Source of the DNA: Azolla caroliniana
Taxonomy: Eukaryota > Plantae > Polypodiophyta
Assembly (NCBI GenBank): GCA_043228905.1
Contig: JBHGNT010000014.1
Location: 6,758,001 to 6,822,000, forward strand
Length of the DNA: 64,000 bases
Direction: 5' to 3'
Below the pieces are notes generated by a model. It was not told the DNA's origin, made no database searches, and was given only the letters and a program-made list of their open reading frames with translations. Position numbers and translations under genes: made by a program. Below, piece after piece: positions 13,499 through 57,976 of the stretch (within the stretch, counting starts at the first letter, position 1; every line of letters begins with the position of its first letter).

Positions 13499-13954
13499 TG
13501 GTCACGAACACACCAACCGCGGACTACGACAGAGCACGGATGATGAGGCTTTGATCGATAAGGTTACGAATGTGGAATAGGAGTTGACAAGGCTAGGAAC
13601 TCTAGAAGTTGTGCATGATGAGAACATGAACTTAGGAATCTATGGAGAGCATGACGACATAGATAAAGAAGGAGACAATATGACATGAAACAAGAATACT
13701 ACATTGATATGTCAATGATTGGTGTTGAATCCCTTGAAAGGGACCAAGGAGGTTACAAGTATTTATACTCCCGAATATTCTAGAACCCTCTAGAACCTTC
13801 TATTTCTAGAACTTTCTAAAAACTCCTAGAACTTGAAATGGATCATCTACTAAGATATACATTACTTGACCATATATTTGGATGTGTTGGTTAGAACAAA
13901 ACACTTGAGGTCAAGAGTTCAAATCTTGACATCACTGTTGTCATGTCTGTGACA
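13499..13954 (-). repeat. Chromovirus-type LTR shared by E1 and E3
   Basis: ~456 bp, ends tgtgaca; PBS on the left (13486-13496) and PPT on the right (ttatcctccccttt, from 13955); partly similar to the E2 LTRs. Confidence 0.8.
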
Positions 13955-14960
13955 TTATCCTCCCCTTTACGACCGCCTTTTCAAAAGCTTCATGGTGCAA
14001 GGGTGAGCTGAAGTACAAAACCAGAGTGGATGGATGATTGAGTGAGTCCTCACCAAAAATAGGAAGAGGAACAAATGTGGGTGACCATGTGAGGTTCTCA
14101 CTAGAGACTGGAATATCGACGGGCATGAGCGAAAATGCACACCGCCATTTCGAAAGCATCATGGTGCAAGGGTGAGCTGAAGTACAAAATAAAAGTGGAT
14201 TGACGATTGAGCGAGTCCTCACCAGAAATAGGAACAAGAACAAATGTGAGTGACCATGTGAGGTTCTCACTAGAGACTGGAATATCGACGAGCGTGAGCG
14301 ACAATGTGCAATCCTCACCGGGGATTGGAACACCAACGTGAGCGTGAGCAACCACGTTCGGTCCTCACCAGAGCCTAGAACACCAACGTGAGTGTGAGCG
14401 ACCATGTACGGTCCTCACTGGGAACTAGAACACCAACAAGCATGAGCAACCATGTGTGGTCCTCACCGGAGACTGGAACACCAACATGAGTGAGAGATTG
14501 TGTGCGGTCCTCACCGGAGACTGGAACACCAACGGACGTGAGCGACCATGTGCGGTCCTCACCGGGAACTGGAACACCAACGAACGTGAGCGACCATATG
14601 CGGACCTCACCGGAGACACGAACACCAACGGACATGAGCGACCATCTGTGGTCCTCACCGGGAACAAGAACACCAATGGGCGTGAGCAACCATGTACAGT
14701 CGTCATCGGAGACACGGACACCAACGGACATGAGAGACCATGTCGGTCCTCACCGAGAGTTGGAACATGAACATCAATGGGCATGAGCGACCATGTGCAA
14801 TCCTCACCGGGAACTGGAACACGAACAACAACGGGCATGAGCGACCATGTCGGTCCTCGTCAAGATCTGGAACACGAACAATAGTTGGAGTGAGTGACCA
14901 TGTGCGGTCCTCACCGGAGATTGGAACACGAACGGGAGTCAGCGACCATGTGTGGCCCAC
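13955..14960 (-). mobile_element. 3' internal fragment of non-autonomous element E3, with hairpin array 2 (~17 units) and a 170-bp duplication
   Basis: PPT next to the LTR; 48-bp period across 14398-14734; 13972 onward repeated at 14142. Confidence 0.75.
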
Positions 14961-17606
14961 TGTCACGGACATACCAACCACAGACTCAGATTAAGCATGG
15001 ATGATGGCGCTACAAGCGTGGAACTTAAGAAAGTGGGAACAACACAAGAGCATGAGGACAGGGATGAAGAATGAGACAAGATGGAATGGAACAAGAATAC
15101 TAGATTGATGTGTCAATGACTGGTGTTGAATCCCTTGAAAGGGAGCGAGGATGTTACAAGTATTTATCCAATTTCCGAGATTGAATATCTCTAGAATATA
15201 CTCGAGAAATATCTCGAGAATATACCCGTTTAGAATATACCACAAAATAATTCTACAATATACTAATGACTAGAATATTCTCGAATGTACTATCCACTAG
15301 ACTCTACAATATATACAGGTTCACAATCGAATGTGGATAATTCACAAGAGTTTCCATATGGATAACACAACACAATGTACTATGTGTTTTAAAGTCAGAG
15401 GATCAAGTCTAGAATGTGACATTATCCCCACTCATATGCCGCCTTCCCAAACCGGTCGTTGGCTTAAGGGGATATGTTGATGAAAATCTTAGACCACCTC
15501 CAAAGTTTTTTGTAATTCCTAGACAAGGAGTAACCCTTCCAGAAGACAAGGTATTGAACACCAACAGGCATGAGCGACCATGTGTGGTCCTCATCGGGAA
15601 CTGGAACACGAATACCAACGAGCGTGAGTGACCATGTGTGGTCCTCATGGGGAACACGAACACCAACGGACATGAGGGACCATGTCGGTCCTGGCTGAGA
15701 GTTGGAACACGACCACCAACGGGCGTGAGTAACCATGTGGGGTCACGGGGAACTAGAACATGAACAGCAACAGGCATGAGCGACCATGTCGGTCCTCGCC
15801 GGGATCTGGAACATGAACAATAGCTAGAGTGTGCGACCATGTGCAGTCCTCACCGGAGACTAGAACATGGATACCAACGGGCATGAGTGACCATGTGCGG
15901 TCCTCACAGGGAACACGAACACCAACGGGCATGAGAGACCATGTCAGTCCTCGCCAAGAGTTGGAACATGAACACCAATAGGCGTGAGCGACCATGCGGC
16001 CCTCACCAAGAATTGGAACACGAATGGATGTGAGAGACCATTGTGGCCCTCATCATGAACTGGAACGTGAGCAACCATGTGTGGCCCTCAACGGGAACTA
16101 GAACGTGAGCGACCATGTGTGGTACTCATCGAAAACACGAATGGGCGTGAGCGACCATGTGGCCCTCACCGAGAACTGAACACGAACGAACGTGAGTGAC
16201 CATGCAGCCCTCACCGAGAACTGAACACGAACAAGCATGAGTGACCATGCGGCCCTCACCGAGAACTGGAACACGAACGGACGTGCGCGACCATGCAGCC
16301 CTCACCGAGAACTGAACACGAACAGATGTGAGCGACCATGTGGGGCCTCACCGAGAACAGGAACAACGGGCGAAGGAGTGCAAGTGAAGCGGTCGACTTA
16401 ACTTCTTCTATTATGAGAGGGTAAATAGTCAAGGTTGACCCAAGACACGACACAAATGGTAGTGCTAGCGAGAAACCCACACGACCCCACCAGGAAAGTG
16501 AGCGGTTGTGACCCCCACGGAAACTAGAAGGTGAGCGATCGAAACCCTCACCGAGAACTGAACACGAACGGATGTGAGCGACCATGTGGACCCTCACCGA
16601 GAACTGGAACAACGGGCACAGGAGTGCAAGTGAAGCGGTCGACCCGACTTCTTCTATTATGAGAGGGTAAATAGTCGAGGTTGACCCAAGACACGGCACA
16701 AATGGTAGTGCTAGCGAGAAACCCACGCGACCCCACCAGGAAAGTGAGCGGTTGTGACCCCCACCGAAACTAGAAGGTGAGCGATCGAAATCGATCCTCG
16801 CCAACAGAAAGTGGTGCGAGACTTGAACTATAACGAAAATGTAGTGCAAGTGAGCAATGATCCGATCCCCACCAGGAAAGTGAGTGGTTGTGACCCCCAC
16901 CAGAACTAGGAAGGTGAGCGATCGAAATCACTCCTCACCAAAACCGTGATGCAAAATGATACCTAAAAATGATGACAAGTAGTGTTGATGACGATGATGG
17001 TTGGGCAAAGAGGTGTTGAAAATGATGACGTCGAAAACAAGGATGTTGATGACGGTAACTCCGGAAGCAATGACAGTGATGATGGTAACTCTAGAAGCAA
17101 AGGCCATCAAAGACGGGTGGTGCTTCCAGTTGGAAGGGATTCAAACTGTCACGGACACACCAACCATGGACTCGGACGAAGCATGGATGATGGCGCTACA
17201 AATGTGGAACTTAAGAAACTGGGAACGACACAAGAGCATGAGGATAGAGATGAAGAACGAGACAAGATGGAAGGGAACAAGAATACTAGATTGATGTGTC
17301 AATGACTGGTGTTGAATCCCTTAAAAGGGAGCAAGGATGTTACAAGCATTTATCCAATTTCCGAGATTGAATATCACTAGAATATACTCAAGAAATATCT
17401 TGAGAATATACCCATTTAGAATATACCACAAAATAATTCTACAATATACTAACGACTAGAATATTCTCGAATATACTATACACTGGACTCTACAATATAT
17501 ACAAGTTTAGAATTGAATGTGGACAGTTCACAAGAGTTTCCATATGGATAACACAACACAATGTATTGTGTGTTAAAAGTCAAAGGGTCGAGTCTAGAAT
17601 GTGATA
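14961..17606 (-). mobile_element. Non-autonomous self-priming LTR element E2 (~2.6 kb, non-coding)
   Basis: LTRs 14961-15421 and 17147-17606 (tgtcac...gtgaca/gtgata, visibly diverged); PPT from 15422; PBS 17134-17144; flanks differ (cccac vs gcttt), so no TSD. Confidence 0.88.
15555..16610. repeat. Tandem hairpin repeat array 3 (~18 units) inside E2
   Basis: Same core as arrays 1 and 2; followed by a ~250-bp internal duplication (~16360-16610 and ~16610-16790). Confidence 0.9.
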
Positions 17607-17955
17607 GCTTTATATAGTCACCCCCCTCTCTTTTCATTAACTAACTACAACAACCACTCTCTTGGGGAATGTGGAGACCCATTAGTCATGGGGAATATGA
17701 AACTCATTAGTTATGTGTCATTAGTTATGATTCTATGACACATAGTTATTGTGTGGAGAGTGGTATGACTCTTGACTCAAATGGAGACCCATTAGTCATG
17801 GGGAATATGAAACTCATTAGTTATGTGTCATTACGTATGATTCTATGACACATAGTTATTGTGTAAAGAGTGGTATGACTCTTGACCTTTGAGTGCTCAT
17901 AGATGCTCAAAGGGTATGTTCACACACAACGTTAGGTTGACCTTGATTCTCAACA
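17607..17955 (-). repeat. 3' LTR of F, truncated, with a 110-bp tandem duplication
   Basis: Matches 60936-61172; 17672 onward is repeated at 17782. Confidence 0.9.
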
Positions 17956-17968
17956 CGCCCCCTCAAGC

Positions 17969-18961
17969 TCAACTCGGGTCAGTTCCTTTCGGTTGATGTC
18001 CGCTTCGGCTGGTATCCGGTTTAGAAGATCTCTGGTGTCTGCTTCGGCTCGTACCCAGTTTGGATGGTATTTGGTTCTCGCTTGTACTCCCCCTCAAGCT
18101 TGGCAAGTCAGGGATCGTCAATCCAAGGTCTAACATGAATTGCCAAAGCTTGTCGGCTCCTAGGGCTTTGGTGAAGATGTCAGTCGTTTGAAGATTCGTG
18201 TTGATGTGTTGAAGGTCCACATCTCTAGCCTGAACACGCCCTCGAATGAAGTGATAGTGCACTTCAATATGCTTTGTGCATGTGTGGAACATAGGGTTCC
18301 GAGCTAGATAAATACTGCTCATGTTGTCGCAGTAAAGGGGAGTCGGATCCTTGATGGGAATGCCCAGATCCTTCAAAATCCTCTTGAGCCATACGACTTC
18401 ACATGCATCTACAGTTGCGCCCCTATATTCGGCCTTCGTACTCAAAAGTGCGATGGTAGGCTGCCTCTTACTACTCCAAGGTATCGCTCCACTGCCAAGG
18501 GAGAAGACAAAACCAGAGGTTGATCGTCGATCAGCTTTGTAGCCGGCCCAGTCAACATCTGTGTACCCTTCGACTCGAATTGGTCTTGCCGATGCGTAGA
18601 GAATTCCATAATCCATTGTGCCGCTCACGTTTCATAATACTCACTTAGTGCAATCGAAATGGCTATCTCGTGGAGTTTGCATGAATTGGCTAAGGAGTTC
18701 GACTGGATAGCTAAGGTCGGGTTGAGTGATCGTGAGATAGATGAGGCTCCCGATCAGTTGACGATATTGAGTCGGCTCGCACTCTTCCATGTCGGAGTTG
18801 GCATCCAATTTGAGGTTTCCATCGAGAGGAGTTGCCACAGATTTACACTCAGTCATCTCGAACTTGTATAACAAGTTGAGGATGTAGTGTCATTGAGAGA
18901 TCATAATACCGACCAAAGTCTGAATTACATAGATGCCAAGGAAGTAATGAAGCTTGTTCAT
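17969..18961 (-). pseudogene. F RT C-terminus and RNase H
   Basis: GYTDVDWAG, RRSTSG, KHIEVHYHFIR motifs; several stops and frameshifts. Confidence 0.9.
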
Positions 18962-19467
18962 GTTCGTGTTGAGAGACAAGCTCAACATTTGTGCGTATTA
19001 CGATGCGTAACCAGTGCGTAGACTGGGTGCATAAAACCGATACGCAGACCGGTGCGTAGAAAGGCCGTATCAGTGCGTAGACCGAAAGGCCGTTAGAAAG
19101 ATATTCGTCGTAAGGAATAGTTTTGGGAGTAAGTGTCGAGGCTCATTTATGAGCAGTCAAGTACTGCCAGTACTTGTGTCAGCGCATTGTCAGGGCTTGT
19201 ATAAAAGTGCTCACTAAGCACATCCTATGTATAGATTGAGTATTATTTTTCGAATTTATCTTCTTGAGTTACTCTCTCCCTCAGTCTCTCCTGTGCGTAC
19301 TATGCAAACCTAAGCTTAAGCTTTCCATTAAACTTGTGTTTTCTGTTGTTCGGTTTTCCTATATTGCTTCCGCACGCCATTCTTTTCATGGTATCAGAGC
19401 GCGAGGGTTGAGAACCTCTGCAGCTGACTTTGCTTGAAGGAAAAACCAACAAAGAAGAACAAGAAAA

Positions 19468-20512
19468 ATGATGGACAGAGGAATGGCTAGCTCGCTTCCA
19501 ACGGAGAAGCTCGATAGAACCAACTACGCATCTTGGTCCTACAAGATGCACCAGTACCTGCTCGGACACGGTTACTGGAGCTATGTTGATGGAGCAAATG
19601 ACACAGCACCCGATTCGACACACAATGACTTCCCGGCGTGGGAACAATCGGCGAGCAGAGTGCTATACTGCTTTGCGTCTTGTGTGGGTGAACAGCTACT
19701 AAGCTACGTTCGGGATGCAAAAACGCCGAAGGGTGCATGGGAAAATCTGAAGAAGATTTTCGCCGCAAGCACCACAGCTAGGAAGCTTCAGCTTCGACAG
19801 GAGTTGAGCAACCTACGACAACCCGATTTGTCGGTAGCTAACTATACCTCGAAGATTAAGGACATATGCGACTACTTAGCTTCCATCAATGTGAACATCG
19901 AGGAAAGCGAGATGGTCAAGGTCTGTCTCGGGGGTTTGGTGTCGAAGTTCGGGGCGTTCTGAACTGCAGTGTGTGCCCGGGAGAATATGTTGTCCTTTTT
20001 TGACTCGATGCTCCTTGTAGAGGAGAACCACGCGGGTGTGTCAACGAGCACGCACACCGATAGCAAGATGTTGTACACGGAGGGAGAAAGGCCCCGTGGT
20101 CATGGCGGACGAGGCGAATCGGTACACAATGGAGGCGGCCAACGGGATCAAGGAAGAAGGCACTGAAGTGATGCTGACAACAACTCCAGACCCTCCGGAA
20201 ACAGGGGGAGTCGAGGCGACGAGAACCAGAAAGGGAAATCCGACGCGGAATGCTGGTACTGTGGCAAGAAAGGACACAGGGAGAGTGAGTGCTGGAAGAA
20301 GCGCGCCAAATCGAAGAGGTCTGGTTCCGGATCTGGTTCCGGACATACTGACAAAGGAAATCGGTAGCGATCGCACTACGTCGAAGGATCCGGAAAAGCC
20401 GGAAAATGGTCAATCTTTGTGATAAGACACGAAGCAAACTCAATGAAGCAGTCTGCCCCGAAATCAGGCGAGGTGTGGTATGTCGACTCTGGCGCATCAA
20501 ACCACATGACGT
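19468..20512 (+). pseudogene. C gag and start of protease
   Basis: Copia gag N-terminus; CWYCGKKGHRESEC; WYVDSGASNHMT cut by B2; in-frame stops. Confidence 0.9.
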
Positions 20513-21152
20513 TGTCGTGAAGAAAACCGTCCACAAGCGGAATCGGTGCACCGGAGCGTAGGAACCGGCTCTTCATGCACGTGCGCCTTACATTGTACAT
20601 AGGAGATCCTAAGCAGGTAGATTCGGTAGGTAAGAAGTAAAGGGGAAACGGTTCCTTCCTGGCCTATAAAAGGAGGGAGACGAGGAGGAGGAAGGGATCG
20701 CGGAGAGTCGAGGACGAAGTGATGTCGGTTTTGTGGGCGAAGGCTTCTCTCTCTCTCTGGCTCGCAAACTCCATGGTTGCTTTTTGTGCAGGTTTTCGGG
20801 AGGCTCGCGCTGCTCTGAGGAATGCCCGATTGCTTCCGGCAGCACCTCCAACCTACTCTTCTCCTTTTGTGCGTTTACGAACAGGCATCGGCATCTGTTC
20901 GTCGGCCTGTTCGGTTGTAACCGACTTCGTGTTTTTGTTGTTTGTCTTTGTTAATACATACATACATTCGTGTCTTTCTGTGTCGCTGTCCCACTTGCAT
21001 CTTTGCGTCGAAGGGCCGTGTCCCTGTGTATCTACGCTCGCACGTAGAGGGTCTCTTCTCCTTCCTCTCTACCTCTTCGGTACAGGACCCCCGAGGTCCC
21101 GCCTCATTCCACGCATCCGCGAGGAATACCTCGACATCTTGGTGAACCCGAC

Positions 21153-21505: not shown

Positions 21506-22822
21506 TGTCGTGAAGATTTTCGGCAATAGTGTGAAAATCCCATAAAACGTACGAAATCGAGTATGAATCACGTAATACAATAATTGTGAAGATAACATTT
21601 TTAATATCTAAGTACAAAATGATGGAGGTTTCGAATGCACTTTATTACACGAGAAATGGACAACTAAATGTCAAGATATGAGGGTATAAACTTTGTGAAA
21701 AGAAAAGAGAAAATTGTGAGATATCCCACATAAGCACGACAAATACGGCTCTCATCATATATAAGGTGGAGCAAAAGATATTATCTTTGTGTCTATGTGT
21801 GGAGCATAGAGAGTTCAAGGTAACTTGAACTAAGAGTGGAGGTGGCCTAGCTACTCGTAAAGGGTTTTGGCCAACCAAAACCGGACCGGTGGCGGCACCG
21901 GTATCCGACGGCATCCGGCGAGGCACCGGTAACCGACGGCATCGGTAACCGACAGCATCCGGCGGCGGCACTGGTATCCGGCAACGGCATCCGGCGAACC
22001 GGCGTTCGGTGACTAGATAAATAAATATATAAATATATATACATATTTACATATACAAGGAGGGCAAGTAACGATTCGAACCTTGCACCTCCAAGTTAGG
22101 AGCCAAATGGCTTACCATTAAGCCATGCTATTTAATTGAAATTATATTTTTGTACTTTTACATGTAAATTCTCATACATGAGAACTAAAATGAGTGACAT
22201 GGTTATCATGCACCACATGTAATACATAAGCGCCAAATGGCAAACATGCAATTTATGCATGTCTTGTACCCTCACATGCATCATATGCATGAGAGCATCT
22301 ATAAAAGAGGGAAGGGGGAGGGGAAAAAACACGGTTTTTTTTTATGAAAATTAAGAGGAAGAAATTCGTTTTCAAATCAATTGTGTAATCTCAACTTCTC
22401 TCTTTCCCAATCTATCTTAAGTACTTTCTCGCCAAAGCTTGTATCGACTTTGAATCCTTCCGGTCCAGAACCCCGGTGGTTCCGCCTCACGATCCGCGCG
22501 TAGTGACGGATCTTCACGACATAATTAAGTGGTGAACCCGACGTGAAAGAGGCGGTAGGAAGGATCAAGTCGAGATTAATACTTGGAGATGGCGTCCTCA
22601 AGCAACCAAGCAGGAGAGCTCGAAAGGATGTTGCTAATCGTCGAGCAAATGATGAGATCTCGGGACAACGACGCGAGTGTGGAGAAGGTTGTCGATCGTG
22701 TCGTAGAGCTCGAGGGCCAATTCGATGGAAGGAACGTTACGAAGTTCCTTGATGCACATAAGAGGGAGATGAATCAAAGGGACGTGTCCGAGGCACGTCA
22801 ACTCGCAAGCTTCAAGAGAGTT
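21506..22822 (+). mobile_element. Truncated Gypsy J: 1016-bp 5' LTR (21506-22521), Trp PBS (22530-22546) and gag start
   Basis: Perfect 12-bp terminal inverted repeat tgtcgtgaagat/atcttcacgaca; same PBS as B1; ORF ...GQFDGRNVTKFL...FKRV is homologous to B1 gag GRFDGRDATKYL...FPRV. Confidence 0.88.
22061..22130 (-). other. tRNA-like A/B-box module inside LTR J
   Basis: Minus strand TGGCTTAATGG (exact A-box), D-like hairpin GGCTTA/TAAGCC, and GGTTCGAATC starting 43 nt after the A-box start. Confidence 0.7.
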
Positions 22823-29086: not shown

Positions 29087-29132
<46 letters not shown>

Positions 29133-39307: not shown

Positions 39308-39761
39308 TGTCATGAATGTTCATGACCATTATGGCGTCACCCGGACTTGAACCTCGAACCTTGTAATCCATACTTGAAAACCTCAACCATTAAGATAGCT
39401 TATTGTTATATGAAACAATAAAAGCTACTTCTTGTATTACATTGATTATTGTAAAAACTCTAGATTATTCTAGAATGTTCTAGAATGTCCAAGAGCATTC
39501 TAGGTCTAGAACATTCTAGAACATTCTAGAAATCTCTAAGCTATTCTATAGGAACCTATAAATAAGGGCATACATGTATTCTCAAATCAATTCAAATCAA
39601 CACCAGTCTTTAGCTCTCATTACATACCTTGTATCCATTCTCTTTCTTTCTCTATCTTATACATCCATTCTTCTCTTAGTATTTGATTCCATTCTTCTCG
39701 TGTTCTCTAATATCCTTCTTCCATCACTCTATCTTTTATCCTTGGTTCTGACAGTTTGATT

Positions 39762-42800: not shown

Positions 42801-44607
42801 AACGGATCACCCCGACTTCAAGTGTTGGAACATTGTCATGATGCCCCCATTGCTGGACATTTTGGTATTTCGAAGACCATTGAGCTGGTGAAACGTTCGT
42901 TTTGGTGGCCTCACTTGCAAAAATTTGTCGAAGATTATGTTCGCACTTGTGACACCTGCTGTCGCACCAAAGTACCCCGGCATCACCCTTATGGCTTACT
43001 ACAACCATTACCCCCTCCCAACACGCCATGGCAGTCTATTTCTATGGATTTCATTACGGATCTGCCACCTTCCAAAGGCTTTGATACTATTTTAACAGTA
43101 GTGGATCGGTTCACCAAGATGGCACATTTTGTACCATGTGTAAAGACCATCAATAGTGAAGAAACTACAGATCTCATTATGCGTGAAGTGTTTCGCCATC
43201 ATGGTCTCCCGAATGATATTATTAGCGATCGAGGTCCTCAATTTATCTCACACTTTTGGAAGCACCTATGGGCAGGCCTCAAAATCTCTTGCAAACTCTC
43301 TTCGGCTTATCATCCACAAATTGACAGACAAACAGAGCGCACAAATCAAATGCTCAAGCAATATCTTCGATGTTTCATTAGTTATCAACAAGATGATTGG
43401 AGTAATATTTTACATCTTGCCGAGTTTGCATACAACAACACGGTCCACTCTTCTACCAAAGTTACACCTTTCTTTGCCTACACCGGCAACCACCCTCGAT
43501 GGTGTATACTGGATCTTCCCGAGGTGTCACGAAACCCTAGTGCGGCGCATCACCTCCATCGACTACAACAAATCCAGTTCGAGTTATCGTCACATCTTCA
43601 GAAAACGCAAGCACACCATAAGACCAATGCCGATCGACATCGTCTTAAGTCTCCGTTTAAGGTTGGTGACCGTGTATGGTTGCTTCGTCGTCACATCAAG
43701 ACTACCCAACCGTGTGCTAAGCTTGACTATCAACGCTTAGGTCCTTTTGTCATCACGGCACAGATTAATGATGCAACATTTCGTCTTAACCTTCCTACGC
43801 ATATGCGGCTTCACCCTGTCTTTCATAGCTCTCTTTTGGAACCTTGTCGCACCTCTTTAATTCCTAATCGTGTCGTGCCACCACCACCTTTTGTACAACT
43901 TGTGGACGGCCCCGAATTCGAGGTAGCTGCTATTCTAAGATTGTGCGCAATAAGCTTTATTATCTAGTTGATTGGCTTGGCTATCCTCCGAGTGATCGCA
44001 CTTGGGAGCCCATCGATAACGTTTGTAATGCTGAAGCTCTGGTCAACGACTTCCATCGTCACTATCCAAACAAGCCCGGCCTAACAATGTTAATGCCGAC
44101 TTCCATTCGAGAAATAACAATGTTAATGCCGACTTCCACTCGGCGTTCTCGAAGGAGGGATAATGTCATGAACACATGACCATTATGGCATCACCCGGAC
44201 TTGAACCTCGAACCTTGTAATCCATACTTGAAAACCTCAACCATTAAGATAGCTTATTGTTATATGAAACAATAAAAGCTACTTCTTGTATTACATTGAT
44301 TATTGTAAAAACTCTAGATTATTCTAGAATGCTCTAGAATGTCCTAGAGCATTCTAGGTCTAGAACATTCTAGAACATTCTAGAAATCTCTAAGCTATTC
44401 TATAGGAACCTATAAATAAGGGCATACATGTATTCTCAAATCAATTCAAATCAACACCGGTCTTTAGCTCTCATTACATACCTTGTATCCATTCTCTTTC
44501 TTTCTCTATCTTATACATCCATTCTTCTCTTAGTATTTGATTCCATTCTTCTCGTGTTCTCTAATATCCTTCTTCCATCACTCTATCTTTTATCCTTGGT
44601 TCTGACA
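39308..44607 (+). mobile_element. Chromoviral Ty3/Gypsy H1 (Tcn1/Tf1-like), defective
   Basis: LTRs 39308-39753 and 44164-44607; TSD aacat/gacat; self-priming PBS 39756-39767; PPT 44151-44163; chromodomain remnant YYLVDWLGY..DRTWEP. Confidence 0.95.
39844..44179 (+). pseudogene. H1 gag (capsid core deleted at ~40092) and pol with stops and frameshifts
   Basis: LLDTGAN protease; YLDD; RH; integrase; chromodomain. Stops at 41395 and 41428; frameshifts near 42525 and 43940. Confidence 0.92.
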
Positions 44608-44612
44608 GACAT

Positions 44613-47922: not shown

Positions 47923-48581
47923 TCACCAAAGATGTCGCGGTATTCCGCGAGTACGTGTAAGATCTTAGGCGGGACCGCGGGGGTCTTGGACTAGGGAGTA
48001 GAGGAATGGAAGCTTAGCTTGAGAGGGGAGGAGAAAGAATAAGACATAAACATAAAATGGATGGAGGCAAGATACACAAACGAGTTATATTAAGAAACAC
48101 CAAACGCTTTACAACCATGGCCGCATAAGCCGAACGAAAACACTATATGGAACCCTAACCGGATAAGTAAAGTAAAGAAGATGATGAAGAAGAAACCCTA
48201 AGCGAAACACTAAACCCGAAATGGTATGAAGAAGAAGAAGAATAGTAAAACCCTAAATGAAACCCTAAAACCGAAATACAAACCCTCGACCTAAGTGGTA
48301 TACCTCTCTCACTCAAAATAGGCAAACCCTTCACAAGAGACCCCTCCCTTCCTTTTATAGCTCAAGGAGGAAGGGAGTTACAATGTGGGATAAATTCTCC
48401 CCATTATTCTATACACAATTTTCCTACTATACATATGCACATGTTGCACATTGCCGACTTGCCCATTCCATCCCGGTTTCACACTAAAGCCGGAAATCTT
48501 CACGACATCCACCCCCACCAAACCGCACATCCATCGGTATGTGCCATGAAAGGAAAAGGTGAGAGATTTCGGCAATGGTGA

Positions 48582-51446
48582 TCAACCGGGTTCTCCGTCG
48601 TCCCAGCAGCCGACCGCCTTGCCGGCTCCTACCGACCCCAATCTGTCAGCTCCATCCGATCCGCCATATCCGACGCTCACACCTTCTTCCCCAATCGGTC
48701 CTTCCGAACACCGTTGCCAATCCGATCGCTCCTCCTTTGTCCGCCCCATATGCCCTCCGATTAGGCCCCCGGTCACTCCGGTTGTACACCGGATTCCACG
48801 CCTCGCGTGTGTCCTTCCTTTGGTTCGACCATCTCCTCGTCCCGAGGACCTCGGCGTGCCGTCTCTCTCCGTTCCACGCTTGCCTTCTGTAGGCTCTTCC
48901 CGTGCGTCGATGTCGTCCTCCGAATACGCGCTCGTTCTTCGTTCCTTCGGTGACCCCATTGAACGCTCCTTGTTTCTCCCTTGCTCGTCGTGCTCTCTCG
49001 CGATAGAGTGTACTGTCATCCCGACCTTCATGTCAAGGTCCTTCGCGGCTCTCGTTACCGCTTCATCCCGACTTGCGTCCTCTTGGCCCACTTGGCCTCG
49101 CATGTCCTCCAGGATGCCACGTTTTCTCATCCCAGTACATAGCCCTTTGCTCTCCGCGCACCATCCTCCGCTCTCGTCGTTCATCCGCCGATCCCGGCAA
49201 CTCACCACTCCGCCTTCCGTCCCATGCTTGCCGCTCTTGCCTCTCAAAGGCTCGACCGGACCGCTATCACCGGTCACTCATTGTCGCTCTTCCGGGTGCA
49301 TACTTGTTTCTTGGCCCTTCGCCGGCCATAGTGCTCCGTTTCACGCCCTTCCCTCGTTGTAGTCCCGACCTCCGCGTCAGCCTCTTCTTCCTTCATCGTC
49401 GCAGTCCTTTCTGGCTCTGTTTGGCCCTCTTGGCCCCACTCGTCCGTCTTTCCGCACTGGATACCCGTTTCGATAACCTCGTCTGCCCTGGCCTCCAACT
49501 CCTCGCCACCACCCGCCGTCTCTCCAGTCTTATGTTGATCCGCAACCGCCGAAGTCTCTAGAATAGGTGTGGAGGGTTCCTCTTGTTTCCGGTCTTCCAC
49601 CAGACCATAGTCGTCCCTCGTGTACCTCGACCTCCAATCATGCTAGCATAGCCCTTGCCCGGATCAGTCTCGAACGATCGGGTTTCGGTTCGGTCAGCTC
49701 TCTTCCATGATCGTAACCGGCCGGTACCGGTTCGACCGAACAATCCCGGCCTTGTCGGCTCTTCTTCGGTTCGGGCCCAGTTGACCAGCCCTCGCTCCAA
49801 TATTCTTCCGCGTCGTCTTCCGATCAGGTCGGTTCCTGACTCTCTCCTCTTTGCCGCTCACGACCTCCCTTTCGGTCCTTCCGCACGTGCCCACTCCAGT
49901 CCTTGCATCCTCAAGGCCATCGCCCATCTTTCTAATCTTATGTTGGTACGCAACCGCTGAAGTCTCCGGCCCCGGGGTCGAGGGATCTCTCCTCCGTCCG
50001 CTACAATCTTCCCCGTTCTCGTTTCGGTCACCCGCCTTGCCGCTGTCACCGTCCGTCACTCTAGCTCTCATGCCAGAGTCTCTAGAACTGGTGTGGGTAA
50101 GGTCCCGGCATCGCCGCTCGTCATGTCCATAGCCACCTCCTTCCCCTTGTCGGCATCTTGGTCACCCGCCTTGCCCCAACCACCGTCCGTCACTCTAGAT
50201 CTCACGTCGGCACTCGAGTCGGCCGCCGGAGTCTCTAGAACCGGTGTGGGTAAGGTCCCGGCACCGCCGCTCATCATGTCCGTAGCCACCTCCTTCCCCT
50301 TGTCATCATCTTGGTCACCTGCCTTGCCGCCGCCACCGTCTGTCACTCTAGGTCTCACGCCGGCACTCGGGCCAGTCGTCGGAGTCTCTAGAACCGGTGT
50401 GGGTAAGGTCTCGGCACCACCGCTCGTCATGTCTATAGCCACCTCCGTCCGGACTTCGTTGTTTGTGGCTACCCCATCCCCGATTATGCAAGCCTCGATT
50501 ACGCTTGCCTCCTCCTCTTCCTCGTTCTCCTTGTCGTCGTCTTGGTTGCCCGCCTTGCCGTCGCCACCGTCCGTCACTCTAGGTTTCACGTCGGTTCTCG
50601 GGCCGACTGTCGAAGTCTCTAGAACCGGTGTGGGTAAGGTCTCGGCACCACCGCTCGTCTCCTCCCCGCTTGATGTTTGGGGCCACCGTGTCCCGAATCC
50701 TCCGCCCACTCTCAAAGTGACGCTCCCTGCTCCGTAGTCACCGGCCTCATCCATGGCCATCCTTTCACCATAAGACGAGAGGGTCGCTTGCTCCGCACCC
50801 TCTCCCTTGTCATCGTCGTACGCTCTTTCAACCTCCGCATAGGCCCGTCCTCCACGCCTAGGGAGGCTTCTTCCTCCGCATCCTCTGATCCTCTCAGGCC
50901 CGACTCCGCGATAGACCCTCCTTCGGCTTCGAACTACGCCTTCACACTCTCGTATGCCTCCCATACCAACGCCTCTAGGTCGTACTCCTCCGATCCATCA
51001 CGCGTCGAGCTCTCCTCCCTCACCACGTAGTCACTCACCGCCCTCTCTTCTCCACCGCTCGCGGGCCATGTTGTGGCCGACCGCTTCTCATCGTGTTGCC
51101 GGCATACCCACTCCGGTTTTGCGTACCCGTACGCCTCCAATAGAGCTCCCTCAAAGGCCTCCCACGAATCGTGAGCTTCTCGAAGCTCCTTGACCTCTCT
51201 ATGTGTCGATACGGTCGCCACTCGACAATAATATTCTAGCCTCATTGCTTCATCCACGCTCCTCTTCATCATCTCGGCATTGTACGCTTCTAAGAATCTC
51301 AGGACATCGTCCCCGTTGAGCCGGCCGACTCAATCGACCACCCTCTCGACGGCTTGTTGAGCTGCATCTCGCCTCGCCTTCTTCCATCTGGCATCCATCA
51401 CAATCTTTGCCACCATCTCCGCGAAATCGAAGTCTTCGTCTTCCAT
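48582..51446 (-). pseudogene. G gag N-terminal domain fused to acidic ~51-aa repeats and a low-complexity tail
   Basis: GRLNGDDVLRFLEAYNAEM...WEAFEGALLEAYG aligns to B1 gag; four LPTPVLET repeats at ~50070-50660; disrupted by stops. Confidence 0.7.
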
Positions 51447-52038
51447 CTCCGCCCTACCTTGCTGCCAAAGATGTCGCGGTATTCCGCGAGTACGTGTTGT
51501 CGTGACTCTTGAGTAGGAAGCAGAGAGAGAGAGCGATGGCGATAGAGATAACGATAATGATAGAGATGGCGAGAGCGGTAGAGATAGCGATAGTGATAGA
51601 AAGAGAGTGAAAGAGGGAGAGAGTGTGAAAGAGAGAAAAGTATAAGTGAGAGATAAGAAATGGGAATGCGATTATATTATGAGAAAGAAGATTACAAGGA
51701 GTAGGCTAAGGGCTAAAGACTGGTGTTGAACCGAATGAGTTGTGATGAGTGTATGGACTCTTATTTATAGGCCCTTATGGAGTATTCTAGAATGTTCTAG
51801 AATATTTTAGATATTTATGAATAATAATAATAATAAATATAATCATGAAATATTCAAGAACATTCTAGAATAATCTAGAATGTTCTAAATATCTCGTAAT
51901 AACTAAACATATAATTATTATGATTACATCTCACATATGTTATTACAATGGTTAAAGTACAATATGTAAACCAAGAGGTTATGGGTTCGATTCCTGGTTC
52001 GCCAAGATGAATGTCATGATAAGCCAAGATGTATGTCT

Positions 52039-55000
52039 TCATGACATTATCCCCCCTTTTCGATGACGAGTTGCACGAGTCGGAAGAAAAGAGTTCAGAC
52101 TTGGTTTATGAGGATATTGGTTGTGAAATGCAACAACCATGTCGGAGGCATTGGCAAGATGTTCGGCAGGCTCCCATGTTCGATCATTAGGTGTATAGCC
52201 TAACCAATCAACCAAGTAGTATAGTTTGTTGCGAATGATCTTGGAGTCGAGGATAGCGGCAACCTCATATTCAGAGCCATTGGAAACGTCAATTGGAGGT
52301 GGGGGAGGTGTAACACGACCCGGAATAGAGCTCGTTGTGTAAGGCTCCAAAAGTGAAACATGGAAGACCGGGTGAAGACGCATATGAGGAGGAAGATCAA
52401 GACGAAATGTCACATCATTGATCTTACCACTTATGACATATGGGCCAAAACGTTGATAATCCAATTTGTAGCAAGGTCGGGTCGTTTTAATGCTACCTTG
52501 TAAGAGCCATACACGATCGCCTACTTGAAATGTAGTCGATGAATCACGGCGATGACGGTTAGCAATCTTCTTTTGAGTGTTTTGGGCTTCACATAAATGA
52601 TGCAAAAGCATATCCTGAACTTCTTGGAGTCGAGTGAGCCGATCTTCAGCAGCTGGGTTTTTTGGGAGTTCAGGATGTTCAAGCATCGTCCAACGAGGAT
52701 GGTACCCAATGTTTGCAAAAAATGGGGAATATCCAGTAGAAGAATGCTCGGAGTTGTTATAAGCAAATTCTGCCAAAGGTAGTAAATCCACCCAATCATC
52801 TTGTTGATAGTTAACAAAACAACGTAGATATTGCTCGACTGTTTGGTTGGTGCGCTCACTCTGCCCATTAGTCTCTGGATGGTAGCCGGAAGAGAGTTTA
52901 CAAGAAGTATGTAAGAGTCTGAACATGTGCCGCCAAAATTTCGAGATGAATTGGGACCCCGATCACTGATAATATCATCCGGAAGACCATGATGGCGAAA
53001 CACCTCCCGCATGAGTAAATCAGCTGTCTCTTGACTAGTAATGGTCTTTGTGCATGGAAGGAAATGTGCCATCTTCGTAAAACGATCGACAACCGTGAGA
53101 ATCGAATCAAATCCCTTGGAAGGTGGAAGATCCGTAATAAAGTCCAAGGAAATAGATTTCCATGGGCTCTCCGGAATAGGCATTGGCTGTAATAAGCCAT
53201 ATGGATGATGTCGAGGCTTTTTTGATCGGCAACATGTATCACAGCTACGAACATAATCCGTAACAAAATGGCGAAGCCGTGGCCACCAATATCGGCGAGA
53301 AATCAACTCAAAAGTCTTGTGGATGCCGAAGTGTCCCGCCATTGGTGTGTCATGACATTGTTGCATGACTTTGAGTCGAGAAGGACCGTCAGGCACATAC
53401 AAGAGAGTTTGTCGAAAAAGTAACCCATCATGCCAACTAAACTGGGTGTAGTCTAGACGAGGATTTTGAGTTTGGGAGCTAGATGCACGATTTGGGATAA
53501 TATGGCTCAAAACCTCTTGGGCGAACGCATCAGTCGCAATCTGCTCACGAATGGAATCAAGAAGCCTTGAATCTCCCGGTGTGTTGATGGTATGCATTGC
53601 CATTATTCGTAGACGATCAGGACCTAAGAGGATTTGCTTTTGGCTTTCAAATGCGGCCTCTCCAGGTTGAAGTTCCATATACGAACGTCTAGATAAAGCA
53701 TCTGCTTTTCCTTGTTGCATCCCAGGGCGATATAGAATTACAAAATCGAAACGAGTTAAGAACTGCGCCCAACGAGCTTGTCGTCGATTCAAGACTCGAG
53801 CACTTTGAAAGTATGTTAGATTTTTATGATCATTGTAGACAATAATCTGCTGAGAAGAACCCTCCAGAAAATGACGCCATTGTTGAAAAGAATCCACAAT
53901 GGCAAGAAGCTCTTTGTCGTGAATCTCATAGTTGATTTCTGCGGCTTCAAATTTTCGTGAGTGAAAAGCCACCGGGTGCAGTTCACCATCATCACCAATT
54001 TGGGATAGTACACTTCCGAGTGCGAAATCCGATGCATCAGCTTCAAGTATAAAGCGCCTCATTGGATCGACATGGATTAAGATTGGTGCGGATGTAAATG
54101 CTTGCTTTAAACCCTCAAATGCAGAGTTCGCATCTATACTCCATACAAATGATCGATTCTTGTGCGTCAGTTGAGTGAGGGGCAACACAATTTTTGAATA
54201 GTCTTTGATGAACTTGCGATAAAAGTTTGCGAACCCCAAAAAACATTGCACATCTCGCACGGACTGTGGTGTTTGCCAATCCAAAATTGTTTGAACCTTT
54301 GATGGATCCATAGAGATGCCATTTGAAGAGACTATGTACCCCAAAAACTCCACTTGACGTTGGTCGAAACTACACTTCTCCAATTTTGCATAGAGACCAT
54401 ACTCTCGTAGCCGTTGCAAAACTTGGCGAACATGTATATCATGTTCTTCTTGAGTTTTTGAGTAGATCAAGATATCATCCAGGTAAACAATGATGAAGAT
54501 ATCGAGGAAGTCTCGAAAAATATCATTCGCCATATGTTGGAAGACTGCTGGTGCATTCGTGAGGCCAAAAGGCATCACTGTGTACTCAAAATGACCATAG
54601 CGAGTGCGGAACGCCGTCTTCCATTCATCCCCAGGACGAATTCGAACAAGGTTGTAGGCACCTCGAAGATCTAACTTCGTGAAATACTTTGCTTCACTGA
54701 GGCGTTCTAGAAGGCTTGAGATCAATGGGAGAGCATATCGGTTTCTAACGGTCACTTTATTCAAGCCTCGATAATCCACGACCATACGAAGCGTACCATC
54801 TTTCTTCTTAACGAAAAAGATGGGTGCACCAGCAGGAGATTTTGAATGTTGGATAAAACCATTTGCCAAGTTCTCATTGATATATTCTCGAAGAACCTCT
54901 AACTCCGTGGGCGAAAGATTATAAATTGGTCCCCATGGAGGCTCTTTTCCTGGCTGCAAATCAATTGGGCAATCATATGGTCGATGCTCTGGTAGTCTAT

Positions 55001-55682
55001 TAGCCTTCACCTTATCGAACACATCGGAGAATTCTATGTACTTCTTTGGTAGTTGGACCCCCAATTCTTGTGAGCTAGATGAGGGAGTTGCTAAAACCGC
55101 AAATACCATCATGTCTTCCTTTCTTCCATCCTCTCGTAATTGATGTATAGAGATTGTTGAAATTGTGGGGGATCCTAGATCCTTAGTTGGAGCTTCAAGA
55201 GACTTGGATTGTACGGTGACCTCTTCAATAGTTCTTTTTCTCCAATCAATGGTTGGGTTATGTAACTCAAACCAAGGAAGACCAAGAACTAGAGAGTGCT
55301 CCGGACTACTAATGATGTTAAATGAGATGACACTAGCCAAATTACCTAGGACTACACGAATTGGTTCAGACTCTTCGACTATATCTCCTGATGCTATAGG
55401 GCGACCATTGATGACTCCTACAGCTACTGGGTTTGGGAGTTTTTTCAAGATGATGTTTTGAGTCAATGCAAACTCGCGATCCATGAAACAAGAATTGGCT
55501 CCGGAATCTAGGAGGGCAGAGGCTAGGGCGCGATGACCTGTAGATGTGCTAAGCTCGACTTGTGCAGAAAAAACTCTACTAACTTGATTTGATGAAATGG
55601 AACCACAACTAGGTACTGACTCTACATAACTAGGATGGTCCAACCAAATGGCTCCTATTTTGGCCGGACTTATTCGTTTAAC
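52039..55682 (-). CDS. pol: H2 pol (PR-RT-RH-IN-chromodomain) with one 1-bp frameshift at ~52953
   Basis: LLDSGAN; YLDD; ADASD; HHCC; GPY; EYEVAAILDS...YLVDWLGY...TWEP. DRGP|QF is broken by a missing C. Confidence 0.88.
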
Positions 55683-56797
55683 ACATCCTCTAATTGGCTC
55701 AAGACATCAAATCTATTCTCATGGCATGGGCTAGTAGGCTTAGTACTTAAGTTATTAGAAGTGATAGTAGAACTTGATGTAGGGTTGTCATGTGCACTTA
55801 CTTGGTAAACTTGACGCCTGGGTTTATGTGGACAATTCACAGCTATATGTCCTGGACCACCACAGTAGAGGCATAGGCGATGCGCCCGACGTCGTTGTTT
55901 CTCAGCATCTGATAAGGGCCCTCGACGTTGTGTCGACTCTATTTCCATCGGAGTGGGACCATCCCTCGTAACGGGTCTAGAACCTTGTGGCGGTGTGGCG
56001 ACTATAGAAGCGTATGTCTGTTCCGGTTGGCGGCGTAACATTTGTTGACGTTCAGAACGTCGCTCAAATAGGCGATTATCACATCGCACAGCTCGGCTAA
56101 TAGCTTCAGTAAGAGACTTTGGATCTTCATGGAAAGTAAGAAGAAGATCTTTGACATCGTTACGCAAACCCTGACGGAATTGATCCATTAAGGCTGCCTC
56201 ATCCCAAGGGATGTCGCATGCCAAGAGACGGAAATCTGCGGCATAAGCTGAAGCGGGACGATCTCCTTGTCGGAGTCTTCGAATCTTGTTTATTGCAGTC
56301 CTAGTGCTATCCGTATCTCCAAAACTAGCTTGAAACTCCTTAACGAATGCCTCGAAATCCTCCAGTAATGGTGATTTCTTCTCAAGAAGTGGTGCAAACC
56401 ATGCTAACGCTGTACCGCTTAGCAAGGTTCCTATTAATCCCACACGGGCAGCATCAGTTGGATACCGATTGGGATGTAACTGAATCACCAAACGAACTTG
56501 ATTCAGGAAACCTCGAAAGAGAGATCTGGTACCATCAAACTTGGCAGGGAGGCTAATCTTTGGTTCCCTTGGGGAGTTTTGAACCCCCGCCGCTTGTTCT
56601 CGTAATGTTAATATAGTAGCCTCAAGTTGATGAACCCGTTGTGATAACTCCTCATATTGATGAGCTTTCTCAGTACTGACTTGTTGAAGATCCCCGAGTA
56701 GCCTTTGATTTTCTTGCTCTAATGCCACAAACTTAATGGTGAGCATATCGAGCTCCGAAAGGACACGCATATACTCTTGCTTGCTGACCGACTCCAT
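55670..56797 (-). CDS. gag: H2 Gag (resembles PEG10/Sushi-type Gag)
   Basis: 375 aa; coiled N-terminus; P.KFDG; LRQG; CLYCGGPGHIAVNC. Confidence 0.93.
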   Translation of the reverse strand: MESVSKQEYMRVLSELDMLTIKFVALEQENQRLLGDLQQVSTEKAHQYEELSQRVHQLEATILTLREQAAGVQNSPREPKISLPAKFDGTRSLFRGFLNQVRLVIQLHPNRYPTDAARVGLIGTLLSGTALAWFAPLLEKKSPLLEDFEAFVKEFQASFGDTDSTRTAINKIRRLRQGDRPASAYAADFRLLACDIPWDEAALMDQFRQGLRNDVKDLLLTFHEDPKSLTEAISRAVRCDNRLFERRSERQQMLRRQPEQTYASIVATPPQGSRPVTRDGPTPMEIESTQRRGPLSDAEKQRRRAHRLCLYCGGPGHIAVNCPHKPRRQVYQVSAHDNPTSSSTITSNNLSTKPTSPCHENRFDVLSQLEDVLNE

Positions 56798-57976
56798 AAC
56801 CGCGGGGGAAAAAGAAAGAAGGATAAAGAAGAAAGCTTGCTAGAGTTATTGGAGAAAGGGAAAAGAAATATTCGGTTCAAACTGTCGTGACTCTTGAGTA
56901 GGAAGCAGAGAGAGAGAGCGATGGCGATAGAGATAACGATAATGATAGAGATGGCGAGAGCGGTAGAGATAGCGATAGTGATAGAAAGAGAGTGAAAGAG
57001 GGAGAGAGTGCGAAAGAGAGAAAAGTATAAGTGAGAGATAAGAAATGGGAATGCGATTATATTATGAGAAAGAAGATTACAAGGAGTAGGCTAAGGGCTA
57101 AAGACTGGTGTTGAACCGAATGAGTTGTGATGAGTGTATGGACTCTTATTTATAGGCCCTTATGGAGTATTCTAGAATGTTCTAGAATATTTTAGATATT
57201 TATGAATAATAATAATAATAAATATAATCATGAAATATTCAAGAACATTCTAGAATAATCTAGAATGTTCTAAATATCTCGTAATAACTAAACATATAAT
57301 TATTATGATTACATCTCACATATGTTATTACAATGGTTAAAGTACAATATGTAAACCAAGAGGTTATGGGTTCGATTCCTGGTTCGCCAAGATGAATGTC
57401 ATGATAAGCCAAGATGTATGTCTTCATGACACGTGTAAGATCTTAGGCGGGACCGCGGGGGTCTTGGACTAGGGAGTAGAGGGGGAATGGAAGCTTAACT
57501 CGAGGGGGGGGAGAAAGAATAGGACATAAACATAGAATGGATGGAGGCAAGATACACAAACGAGTTATATTCAGAAACACCAAACGCTTTACAACCATGG
57601 CCGCATAGGCCGAGCGAAAACACTATATGGAACCCTAACCGGATAAGTAAAGTAAAGAAGATGATGAAGAAGAAACCCTAAACCCGAAATGGTATGAAGA
57701 AGAAGAAGAATAGTAAAACCCTAAACGAAACCCTAAAACCGAAATACAAACCCTCGACCTAAGGGGTATACCTCTGTCACTCAAAATAGGCAACCCCTTC
57801 ACAAGAGATCCCTCCCTTCCTTTTATAGCCCAAGGAGGGAGGGACGTTACAATGTAGGATAAATTCTCCCCCTTATTCTATACATCATTTTCCTACTATA
57901 CATGTGCACATGTTGAACATTGCTGACTTGCCCATTCCATCCCGGTTTCACACCAAAACCAGAAATCTTCACTACA

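What the first reader, a model, noticed from the sequence alone, without database searches (positions are those of the whole stretch)
13879..57389. Antisense tRNA-like Pol III promoter module in the LTRs of four retrotransposon families
Seen: each LTR has an A-box-like and B-box-like pair on the strand opposite the element. H2 (51941-52004, 57326-57389): TATTACAATGG-32 nt-GGTTCGATTCC-TGGTTCGCCA. H1 (39332-39397, ~44186-44251): TATCTTAATGG-33 nt-GGTTCAAGTCC-GGGTGACGCCA. J (22061-22130): TGGCTTAATGG-32 nt-GGTTCGAATC. The E1/E3 LTR (13879-13930) has a weaker version with GAGGTC and the T-arm-like CAAGAGTTCAAATCTTG. Boxes, spacing and (in H1, H2) a terminal CCA are kept while the sequence between them differs. 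In the chromovirus-type LTRs the module lies ~25-45 bp from the outer U3 end and points outward. Known: A/B boxes recruit TFIIIC; tDNAs can act as chromatin barriers; Cassandra elements carry 5S sequence in their LTRs. Inference: these LTRs may carry a portable insulator or an outward Pol III promoter shielding the Pol II promoter in heterochromatin, in two Gypsy clades. I do not recall this being described.
Basis: partly seen in the sequence, partly recalled or inferred. Interest (0 to 1): 0.8.

Follow-up and report, generated by a model that had tools for sequence, protein, structure and literature searches.

The report
Backward tRNA promoters in retrotransposon LTRs
Two lineages of protein-coding jumping genes in a plant that is likely a moss keep, in thousands of their end repeats, the two promoter boxes of a tRNA gene facing backwards just upstream of their own promoter, and these boxes likely recruit the tRNA-gene factor TFIIIC to keep that promoter open among silenced repeats.

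Summary
Confirmed, and lineage-wide rather than four families. An antisense A-box/B-box pair, mostly at tRNA spacing (32-33 nt), lies in U3 of most sampled Tcn1-type chromovirus LTRs (76 of 94 copies antisense, 0 sense) and in 7 of 26 Phygy-type families, but in 0 of 14 Copia LTRs. A strict motif has 7,636 genomic matches (control 1). Across families the boxes stay about 0.8 identical while spacer and flanks fall to about 0.35. The cloverleaf, terminator and RNA fold are not kept, so selection looks DNA-level. Corrections: the 'CCA' is tRNA positions 71-73, not a tail. The module is no primer, since these chromoviruses look self-priming. In Phygy-type LTRs it sits mid-U3; what both clades share is a divergent position about 150-310 bp upstream of the Pol II TATA. 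Best reading (0.47): a TFIIIC site that keeps the LTR promoter open or insulated; binding and function are untested, and no RNA data exist. Closest known: Helenus TRIMs and foamy-virus U3 Pol III genes. Ten literature searches found no such module in autonomous Gypsy clades. This scan noted tRNA boxes in chromovirus LTRs of another genome before (e1-10420520); its landing-pad reading is not supported here.

The parts
51498..52046 (-). H2 3' LTR (Tcn1-type chromovirus), preceded by its PPT
   Evidence: 99.8% identical to 56883-57431; PPT junction and 5-bp TSD
56883..57431 (-). H2 5' LTR; TATA call at 57148-57155; no tRNA PBS, the post-LTR sequence is complementary to 11 nt that start about 34 nt after the TATA (predicted self-priming)
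51941..52004 (+). H2 3'-LTR module: A box 51941-51951, AGGT 8-5 nt before the B box, B box 51984-51994, CCA 52002-52004
57326..57389 (+). H2 5'-LTR module: A box 57326-57336, B box 57369-57379, CCA 57387-57389
52039..56839 (-). H2 coding region: gag, RT-RNaseH-integrase and chromodomain, over three open frames in this copy
   Evidence: PF03732, PF00078, PF17921, PF00385
39308..39753 (+). H1 5' LTR (Tcn1-type); TATA call 39556; predicted self-priming complement of 12 nt
44164..44607 (+). H1 3' LTR, 98.2% identical to the 5' LTR
39332..39397 (-). H1 5'-LTR module: A box 39387-39397, B box 39343-39353, CCA 39332-39334
44186..44251 (-). H1 3'-LTR module: A box 44241-44251, B box 44197-44207
21506..22521 (+). 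J 5' LTR (Phygy-type non-chromovirus Gypsy), followed by a tRNA PBS at about 22530 (isotype Trp is recalled, not tested); TATA call 22299
22061..22125 (-). J module: A box 22115-22125, B box 22072-22082, mid-U3
   Evidence: present in 30 of 30 best-matching copies, which were selected by similarity to this region
13499..13954 (-). E1 LTR, Tcn1-type ends, flanked by tandem-repeat internal DNA without a Pfam hit in the one frame tested there (likely non-autonomous)
13880..13930 (+). E1 decayed module: A-like 13880-13890, B 13916-13925, spacing 25
15351..15409 (+).
17537..17594 (+). E2 5'-LTR decayed module (LTR about 17145-17604), spacing 37

Best explanation
The U3 of these Gypsy LTRs holds a conserved antisense tRNA-type A-box/B-box module that likely binds TFIIIC and likely keeps the element's own Pol II promoter, about 150-310 bp away and facing the other way, open and shielded from surrounding silent chromatin. 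Shown: the boxes, tRNA spacing, antisense strand, family-wide presence, conservation against a diverged spacer, loss of tRNA structure, and position relative to the TATA call. Inferred: origin from a tRNA-derived SINE or tRNA copy that entered U3 of an ancestral 3' LTR and was copied to both LTRs at replication; TFIIIC binding; possible TFIIIB loading on the AT-rich stretch between module and TATA; a nucleosome-phasing or barrier effect like that of yeast tDNAs; a benefit to elements that nest in heterochromatic repeat islands. Any RNA made would be a by-product.
For: Antisense score >=14 of 17 in 23 of 31 LTR clusters, against 0 of 31 sense and 2 of 31 in the next 170 nt; 76 of 94 copies against 0 of 94 sense. 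These LTRs were picked by their PPT junction only. GG-to-B spacing peaks at 32-33, as in five host tRNA genes printed with a valid anchor. Pairwise identity: box positions 0.81 / 0.82, spacer 0.35 / 0.37, upstream 0.37 / 0.36 in 20 Tcn1-type / 9 Phygy-type representatives; between the clades boxes 0.82, spacer 0.28. No stem covariation beyond box letters, no acceptor, D or anticodon stem, no fixed T4 terminator; H1 and H2 modules fold worse than shuffles. B-to-TATA 148-252 nt in 24 of 28 Tcn1-type and 222-312 nt in 8 of 8 Phygy-type LTRs with a TATA call, while the distance to the LTR start is 16-115 against 76-764. Present in 49 of 55 related LTRs from metagenome contigs, 0 of 8 distant ones, 0 of 14 Copia LTRs. 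7,636 strict matches against 1 reversed. Pol III complexes phase nucleosomes and act as barriers in yeast (PMC4228148, passages). The moss chromovirus RLG1 sits in heterochromatic islands yet is transcribed (PMC7466625, passages).
Against: No binding, chromatin or expression data at all. Box positions were used as anchors, so the identity contrast is partly circular; the AGGT conservation (9 of 9 in Phygy-type, not used for selection there) and the spacing peak are the independent parts. The most abundant Phygy-type families (26, 16 and 9 of 93 copies) have no module in their own LTRs and thrive. One Tcn1 cluster of 14 copies has an intact GGTTC core in only 4. The largest Tcn1 clusters have spacing 39, a worn 5' half of the A box and no AGGT; only 35 of 94 copies pass a B-plus-GGT test. 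Within J the B box decays faster than its flanks (0.033 against 0.012-0.020, mostly CpG changes), so many copies are probably methylated and inert. The upstream CAA motif is not enriched (3 of 24 against 2 of 24). A stable complex in the 3' LTR would lie in the path of the genomic transcript, and yeast tDNAs also block or silence nearby Pol II (PMC4228148). The plant barrier review names TFIIIB/C and tRNA-gene insulators only for yeast and animals (PMC9540200, passages). 11 of 39 Tcn1-type and 3 of 11 Phygy-type LTRs had no TATA call.
Confidence: 0.47

Rival explanations
1. The module is an active Pol III promoter whose antisense RNA matters: from the 3' LTR it would cover the U3 end, PPT and integrase end and tune the element's own RNA or small-RNA silencing.
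For: Both boxes and tRNA spacing are kept; AT content is 0.77 at -35 to -20; orientation is antisense throughout; foamy viruses make Pol III RNAs from U3 (PMC3993851, passages).
Against: No conserved structure or length: the first T4 is 2-108 nt away or absent within the stretch examined in 9 of 24 Tcn1-type representatives, and cuts right after the B box in 3. The spacer is free to drift. In Phygy-type LTRs the RNA would end inside U3.
Confidence: 0.2
2. The conserved letters serve something other than TFIIIC: a Pol II activator site read on either strand, or a signal in the genomic RNA or cDNA end.
For: AGGT before the B box (17 of 20 and 9 of 9) is more constant than in the host tRNAs sampled, and the 3' half of the A box is better kept than the 5' half.
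Against: Two boxes at tRNA spacing on one strand, in two clades with different priming and different distances to the LTR end; no covariation that would point to an RNA structure.
Confidence: 0.12
3. TFIIIC/Pol III binds but acts as a self-dampener or roadblock, lowering LTR activity or stopping read-in and read-through, like tRNA-gene-mediated silencing in yeast.
For: tgm silencing and tDNA roadblocks are described (PMC4228148); the module is within the distance range of such effects.
Against: Module-bearing families include very young, high-copy ones (H2: 40 best copies about 100% identical, 868 candidates). A roadblock in the 3' U3 would cut the genomic RNA short of R.
Confidence: 0.1
4. 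The modules are landing pads for elements that integrate at Pol III start sites, as for Ty3 or DGLT-A.
Against: 77 of 86 comparable modules are uninterrupted for at least 150 nt upstream of the A box; the 9 breaks are scattered from 6 to 133 nt. 1 of 26 H2 insertion flanks has a module within 300 nt.
Confidence: 0.04
5. A functionless relic of an old SINE insertion, carried along with the LTR.
For: Decay within families; absence from successful families.
Against: G/C-rich boxes persist at about 0.8 identity in pairs whose spacers are below 0.4 (124 and 21 pairs), across integrases only about 50-55% identical.
Confidence: 0.05

Closest known systems
Helenus / TRIMp3 (Kojima 2024, PMC10886601; parts 1-4 of 6 of the text and figure-legend passages read)
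   Same: tRNA-derived sequence inside both LTRs; conservation centred on boxes A and B; no functional tRNA; not a primer; proposed origin by SINE insertion into an LTR.
   Different: Helenus are non-coding TRIMs of 311-1263 bp whose Pol III promoter is thought to transcribe the element; the only plant case is Selaginella. Here the elements are about 5-6 kb and protein-coding, with a TATA-type promoter, and the module is antisense. The paper expects autonomous partners to use Pol II promoters and remarks that 'not a few' Repbase LTRs resemble tRNA parts, but analyses only TRIMs. The strand of the Helenus tRNA part is not stated in the passages I read.
Cassandra TRIM (as described in PMC10886601)
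   Same: Pol III promoter carried in LTRs and conserved over long times.
   Different: 5S-type promoter, drives the element's own RNA, non-autonomous.
Foamy-virus U3 Pol III miRNA genes (PMC3993851, passages)
   Same: A/B-box promoters inside U3 of an autonomous LTR element.
   Different: Those make defined hairpin RNAs with terminators; here no hairpin or terminator is conserved.
tDNA and extra-TFIIIC barriers and roadblocks of yeast (PMC4228148, passages; Simms 2008 seen as a title only)
   Same: A/B boxes acting through bound Pol III factors rather than through an RNA product (inferred here).
   Different: Those are fixed host loci tested by mutation; this one is carried by the retrotransposon and untested.
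Divergent upstream tRNA genes needed for trypanosome snRNA genes (Nakaar 1994, title only, in a reference list; the divergent geometry is recalled)
   Same: tRNA-type boxes upstream of, and facing away from, another promoter.
   Different: There the partner gene is Pol III-transcribed (recalled); here it is a TATA-type LTR promoter.
Tcn1 chromoviruses and Phygy elements (Neumann 2019, PMC6317226, passages; Novikova 2010, PMC2864245, passages and supplement S3)
   Same: Host lineages of the module: chromodomain plus predicted self-priming (H1, H2, E); short non-chromovirus Gypsy with tRNA PBS (J).
   Different: Neither paper mentions Pol III boxes in the passages returned; 'polymerase III' has 0 occurrences in PMC6317226. 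The Selaginella SM-Tcn1 LTR shows no module by eye.

Membership tests
Helenus / TRIMp3 | tRNA-derived sequence with conserved A and B boxes in both LTRs | tested here: met
Helenus / TRIMp3 | Short non-coding TRIM (under about 1.3 kb) | tested here: not met
   H1 and H2 are 5.3 and 5.9 kb with gag, RT, integrase; 69 of 94 sampled 3' LTRs have integrase/chromodomain upstream
Helenus / TRIMp3 | Pol III promoter placed to transcribe the element itself | tested here: not met
   Antisense in 76 of 94 copies, sense in 0
tRNA gene | Cloverleaf, recognised by ARAGORN or Rfam RF00005 | tested here: not met
tRNA gene | A and B boxes at 32-33 nt spacing | tested here: met
   24 of 39 representatives at 31-34 by my anchoring (4 of them doubtful); a subclade has 38-44
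Ordinary SINE insertion | Sporadic copies with their own tail and TSD | tested here: not met
   Family-wide presence; no shared tail or flanking repeat seen by eye in the alignments
Type 2 Pol III promoter / TFIIIC site | TFIIIC occupancy or Pol III transcription | not testable with these tools
   No ChIP data; no RNA holder listed
tDNA-type chromatin barrier | Blocks spread of silent chromatin in a B-box-dependent way | not testable with these tools
   needs reporters
Ty3-type Pol III landing pad | Insertions clustered just upstream of the A box | tested here: not met
Foamy-virus-type U3 Pol III RNA gene | Conserved hairpin and T-run terminator | tested here: not met
Tcn1 chromovirus (H1, H2, E) | Chromodomain at the integrase end | tested here: met
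   PF00385, E 4e-12, for H2; no chromodomain hit for the H1 frame
Tcn1 chromovirus (H1, H2, E) | No tRNA PBS; post-LTR sequence complementary to the RNA 5' end | tested here: met
   11-13 nt complements in 9 of 9 5' LTRs checked, about 34 nt after the TATA in the 8 with a TATA call
Tcn1 chromovirus / Phygy | Placement in a tree with REXdb reference sequences | not tested
   REXdb FASTA supplement too large to read; labels rest on domains (PF13352 in J's relatives), priming type and recalled descriptions

The most novel reading that the evidence does not exclude
Two clades of autonomous Gypsy retrotransposons have domesticated a tRNA-gene promoter as a built-in, portable TFIIIC boundary or activator: a divergent Pol III/Pol II promoter pair that lets the LTR fire from inside heterochromatin, scattering thousands of TFIIIC sites over a plant genome.
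Probability: 0.4. Interest if true: 0.85.

Novelty: new variant of a known kind. Interest (0 to 1): 0.68.

Why it matters
If functional, it is a new way for LTR retrotransposons to stay transcribable in silent chromatin, by borrowing Pol III machinery. It would also give a natural, high-copy test case for whether TFIIIC acts as a barrier in plants, which the review I read leaves open. At least 7,636 strict copies far exceed the 62 tRNA matches returned for this genome (a lower bound), so LTRs could be the main pool of TFIIIC sites. Sister families with and without the module allow direct comparison, and a roughly 60-bp plant insulator candidate would be useful for transgenes.

Tried and rejected
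Self-encoded primer: rejected; module 3' ends share only 5 nt with the post-LTR sequence in H1, H2 and J, and the chromoviruses show self-priming complements. Functional tRNA: rejected. CCA tail: rejected, wrong register. Landing pad: not supported. Within-family conservation test: no power in H2 (copies about 100% identical) and dominated by post-insertion CpG decay in J. Expression: no RNA holder listed; three contig-only runs were laid and say nothing on strand or level. Viral contigs: no relative. Look-up of earlier findings by sequence: nothing. Sense-strand hits near Phygy-type PBSs (8 of 93): five belong to neighbouring LTRs, three were left unexplained and may be chance. The one hit inside a Copia LTR window is a nested Phygy-type LTR. 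A sense B-like motif at 574 and 7104 in the F LTR is not kept in the related LTR at 20513-21136 and was dropped. The Rfam MIR4378 hits (below gathering score) fall on the palindromic arrays next to the module, not on it. Trees are short-alignment FastTree runs; they cannot decide between one origin with losses and several gains, and no clade test was run. Two papers (Nakaar 1994, Simms 2008) were not held. My notebook says 8 Phygy-type families; the count is 7 of 26.
Full report
Setting. The window is a nest of Copia and Gypsy LTR retrotransposons in a 523-Mb genome. H1 and H2 are chromovirus-type Gypsy elements. H2 has a chromodomain hit (PF00385). Neither has a tRNA PBS; the sequence after the 5' LTR is complementary to 11-13 nt inside the LTR in 9 of 9 LTRs checked, starting about 34 nt after the TATA call in the 8 that have one. 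This is the self-priming layout predicted for Tcn1 elements of mosses and club-mosses (PMC6317226, passages), and it backs the TATA calls. E1 and E2 have the same ends but tandem-repeat interiors. J has a tRNA PBS shared with elements that hit DUF4100; I call these Phygy-type on domains and recall, without a reference tree. The host is therefore likely a moss (inference).

Observation. Five pairs score 16 or more of 17 against 0.15 per shuffled window (20 shuffles). ARAGORN and Rfam find no tRNA. The 'CCA' sits 7-8 nt after position 62, the register of tRNA positions 71-73 in a host tRNA-Ile gene; it is there in 9 of 24 Tcn1-type and 0 of 9 Phygy-type representatives. It is a vestige, not a tail.

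How widespread, chromoviruses. A PPT-LTR junction pattern that knows nothing of the module has 747 matches. Of the first 100 listed I fetched 92 distinct ones; 8 were left out, 7 of them at H2 copies already seen. They gave 94 entries (two counted twice) in 31 clusters at 85%. The best antisense A+B score in the first 170 nt is 14 or more in 23 of 31 clusters, against 0 of 31 for the sense strand and 2 of 31 for the next 170 nt; per copy it is 76 of 94 against 0 of 94. 69 of 94 have integrase/chromodomain DNA upstream, so this is mainly a feature of coding elements. Of 80 related loci from metagenome contigs, 14 gave no PPT call and 3 were dropped as too short or implausible. Of the 63 left, 49 of 55 ingroup LTRs and 0 of 8 distant ones have a B box with GGT before it. 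Most of these contigs look like one campaign and their hosts are unknown, so species breadth is not established. On a short integrase tree the module spans lineages down to about 50-55% identity. Five module-less distant LTRs (four tips) group weakly beside one module-bearing clade, so one gain with loss and two gains are both open. The Selaginella SM-Tcn1 LTR shows no module by eye.

How widespread, second clade and controls. The J-type PBS has 5,561 matches. In 93 sampled 5' LTRs (26 families) an antisense pair at spacing 32-33 occurs in 11 LTRs of 7 families; the three largest families have none in their own LTRs. Within the three multi-copy module families 7 of 12 LTRs scored. The bearers are scattered over a poorly resolved gag tree. 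Copia control: 14 of 30 junction hits were confirmed as Copia 3' LTRs, in 6 clusters; none has the module, and the single hit is a nested Phygy-type LTR. A strict pattern built from the module has 7,636 matches against 1 for the reversed pattern. Of the first 30, I assign 29 to LTRs of these two clades, all antisense, partly by eye, and 1 is free-standing.

What is conserved. Among 40 representatives at 75% identity the B box scores 7 or more of 8 in 39, and the distance from TGG/CGG to the B box peaks at 32-33 nt, as in host tRNA genes. After dropping 4 rows with doubtful A anchors, pairwise identity is 0.81 at box positions, 0.93 at an AGGT 8-5 nt before the B box, 0.35 in the spacer and 0.37 upstream (20 rows). 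The 9 Phygy-type rows give 0.82, 1.0, 0.37 and 0.36; between clades boxes are 0.82 and spacers 0.28. The box figures are inflated by anchoring; the spacing peak and the Phygy AGGT are not. T-stem pairs do not beat shuffles (one of ten at p=0.05), acceptor, D and anticodon stems are lost, and the first T4 is 2-108 nt away or missing. H1 and H2 modules fold worse than shuffles; J and E1 form hairpins but no cloverleaf. Selection therefore appears to act on the DNA motif, not on an RNA.

Position. The B box is 16-115 nt from the LTR start in Tcn1-type and 76-764 nt in Phygy-type LTRs (start calls by pattern). It is 148-252 nt upstream of the TATA call in 24 of 28 Tcn1-type and 222-312 nt in 8 of 8 Phygy-type LTRs with a call; 11 and 3 had none, and H1/H2 duplicate two close representatives. 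The shared layout is a divergent Pol III-type/Pol II promoter pair with an AT-rich stretch (0.77) where TFIIIB would load; CAA is not enriched, and such flanking signals are weaker in non-flowering plants (PMC13578239, section 20).

Mechanism. Most likely TFIIIC binds and keeps the LTR promoter open or shielded (0.47). Yeast Pol III complexes phase nucleosomes and act as barriers, but also silence or block nearby Pol II (PMC4228148, passages), so the direction of the effect is open (dampener 0.1). A functional antisense RNA (0.2), a non-Pol III motif (0.12), a relic (0.05) and a landing pad (0.04) are the rivals. Against my reading: successful families lack the module; a 14-copy cluster has an intact B core in 4; the largest clusters have spacing 39 and no AGGT; J copies lose the B-box CpG faster than flanks; a complex in the 3' LTR would face the genomic transcript; and nothing here shows binding. 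No RNA holder was listed.

Comparison and novelty. tRNA-derived A/B boxes in LTRs are known from Helenus TRIMs (PMC10886601, parts 1-4 of 6 and passages), and Pol III genes in U3 from foamy viruses (PMC3993851, passages). This case fails Helenus membership on size, coding capacity and strand. Kojima notes that other Repbase LTRs resemble tRNA parts without analysing them, so scattered precedents may exist. Ten full-text searches (listings seen, ten papers opened as passages or sections) returned no description of a clade-wide antisense module in autonomous Gypsy LTRs; subscription journals are not covered, and the large REXdb supplements could not be read. PMC2864245, PMC7466625, PMC9540200, PMC3601003 and PMC5006619 were seen as passages only. 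This scan has an unreviewed note of tRNA boxes in chromovirus LTRs of another genome (e1-10420520), which is a lead and not support.

Verdict. A real, selected, lineage-wide feature; a new variant of a known kind; function inferred, not shown. Interest 0.68.

Noticed in passing
L364 (G000:C1:1649983-1650026): A stand-alone tRNA-like or SINE-like unit with A and B boxes outside any LTR that I could see; a possible relative of the donor.
   Followed up: no
PMC2864245 supplement S3: By eye, Selaginella SM-Tcn1 has the same post-LTR/R complement as H1 and H2, although the paper reports no evidence of self-priming; its U3 shows no A/B module.
   Followed up: partly
L261-L350, last 600 nt before the PBS: Phygy-type LTRs with the module are AT-rich (36% GC, 16 CpG; n=11); those without are GC-rich (51%, 39 CpG; n=82). 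This may be two promoter strategies or only kinship.
   Followed up: partly
window 39460-39535, 44315-44390, 57165-57275: Arrays of palindromic heat-shock-element-like dyads (label recalled) lie between module and TATA in many Tcn1-type LTRs, 0-7 per LTR.
   Followed up: partly
window 12480-17604: Likely non-autonomous Tcn1-type elements whose internal DNA is made of 46-48 nt tandem repeats, with a nested or tandem LTR arrangement.
   Followed up: partly
L121-L129, L138-L140: Tandem arrays of tRNA-Lys, tRNA-Ile and tRNA-Arg genes, some with drifting anticodons and boxes.
   Followed up: no
L032, L049, L035, L231, L236: A Tcn1 subclade has stretched the box spacing to 38-44 nt while keeping TGG and the B box.
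   Followed up: partly
window 47953-48507 and 57431-57976: Another LTR pair (92% identical, Phygy-like ends) that hosts the H2 insertion; no box pair scoring 15 or more.
   Followed up: partly
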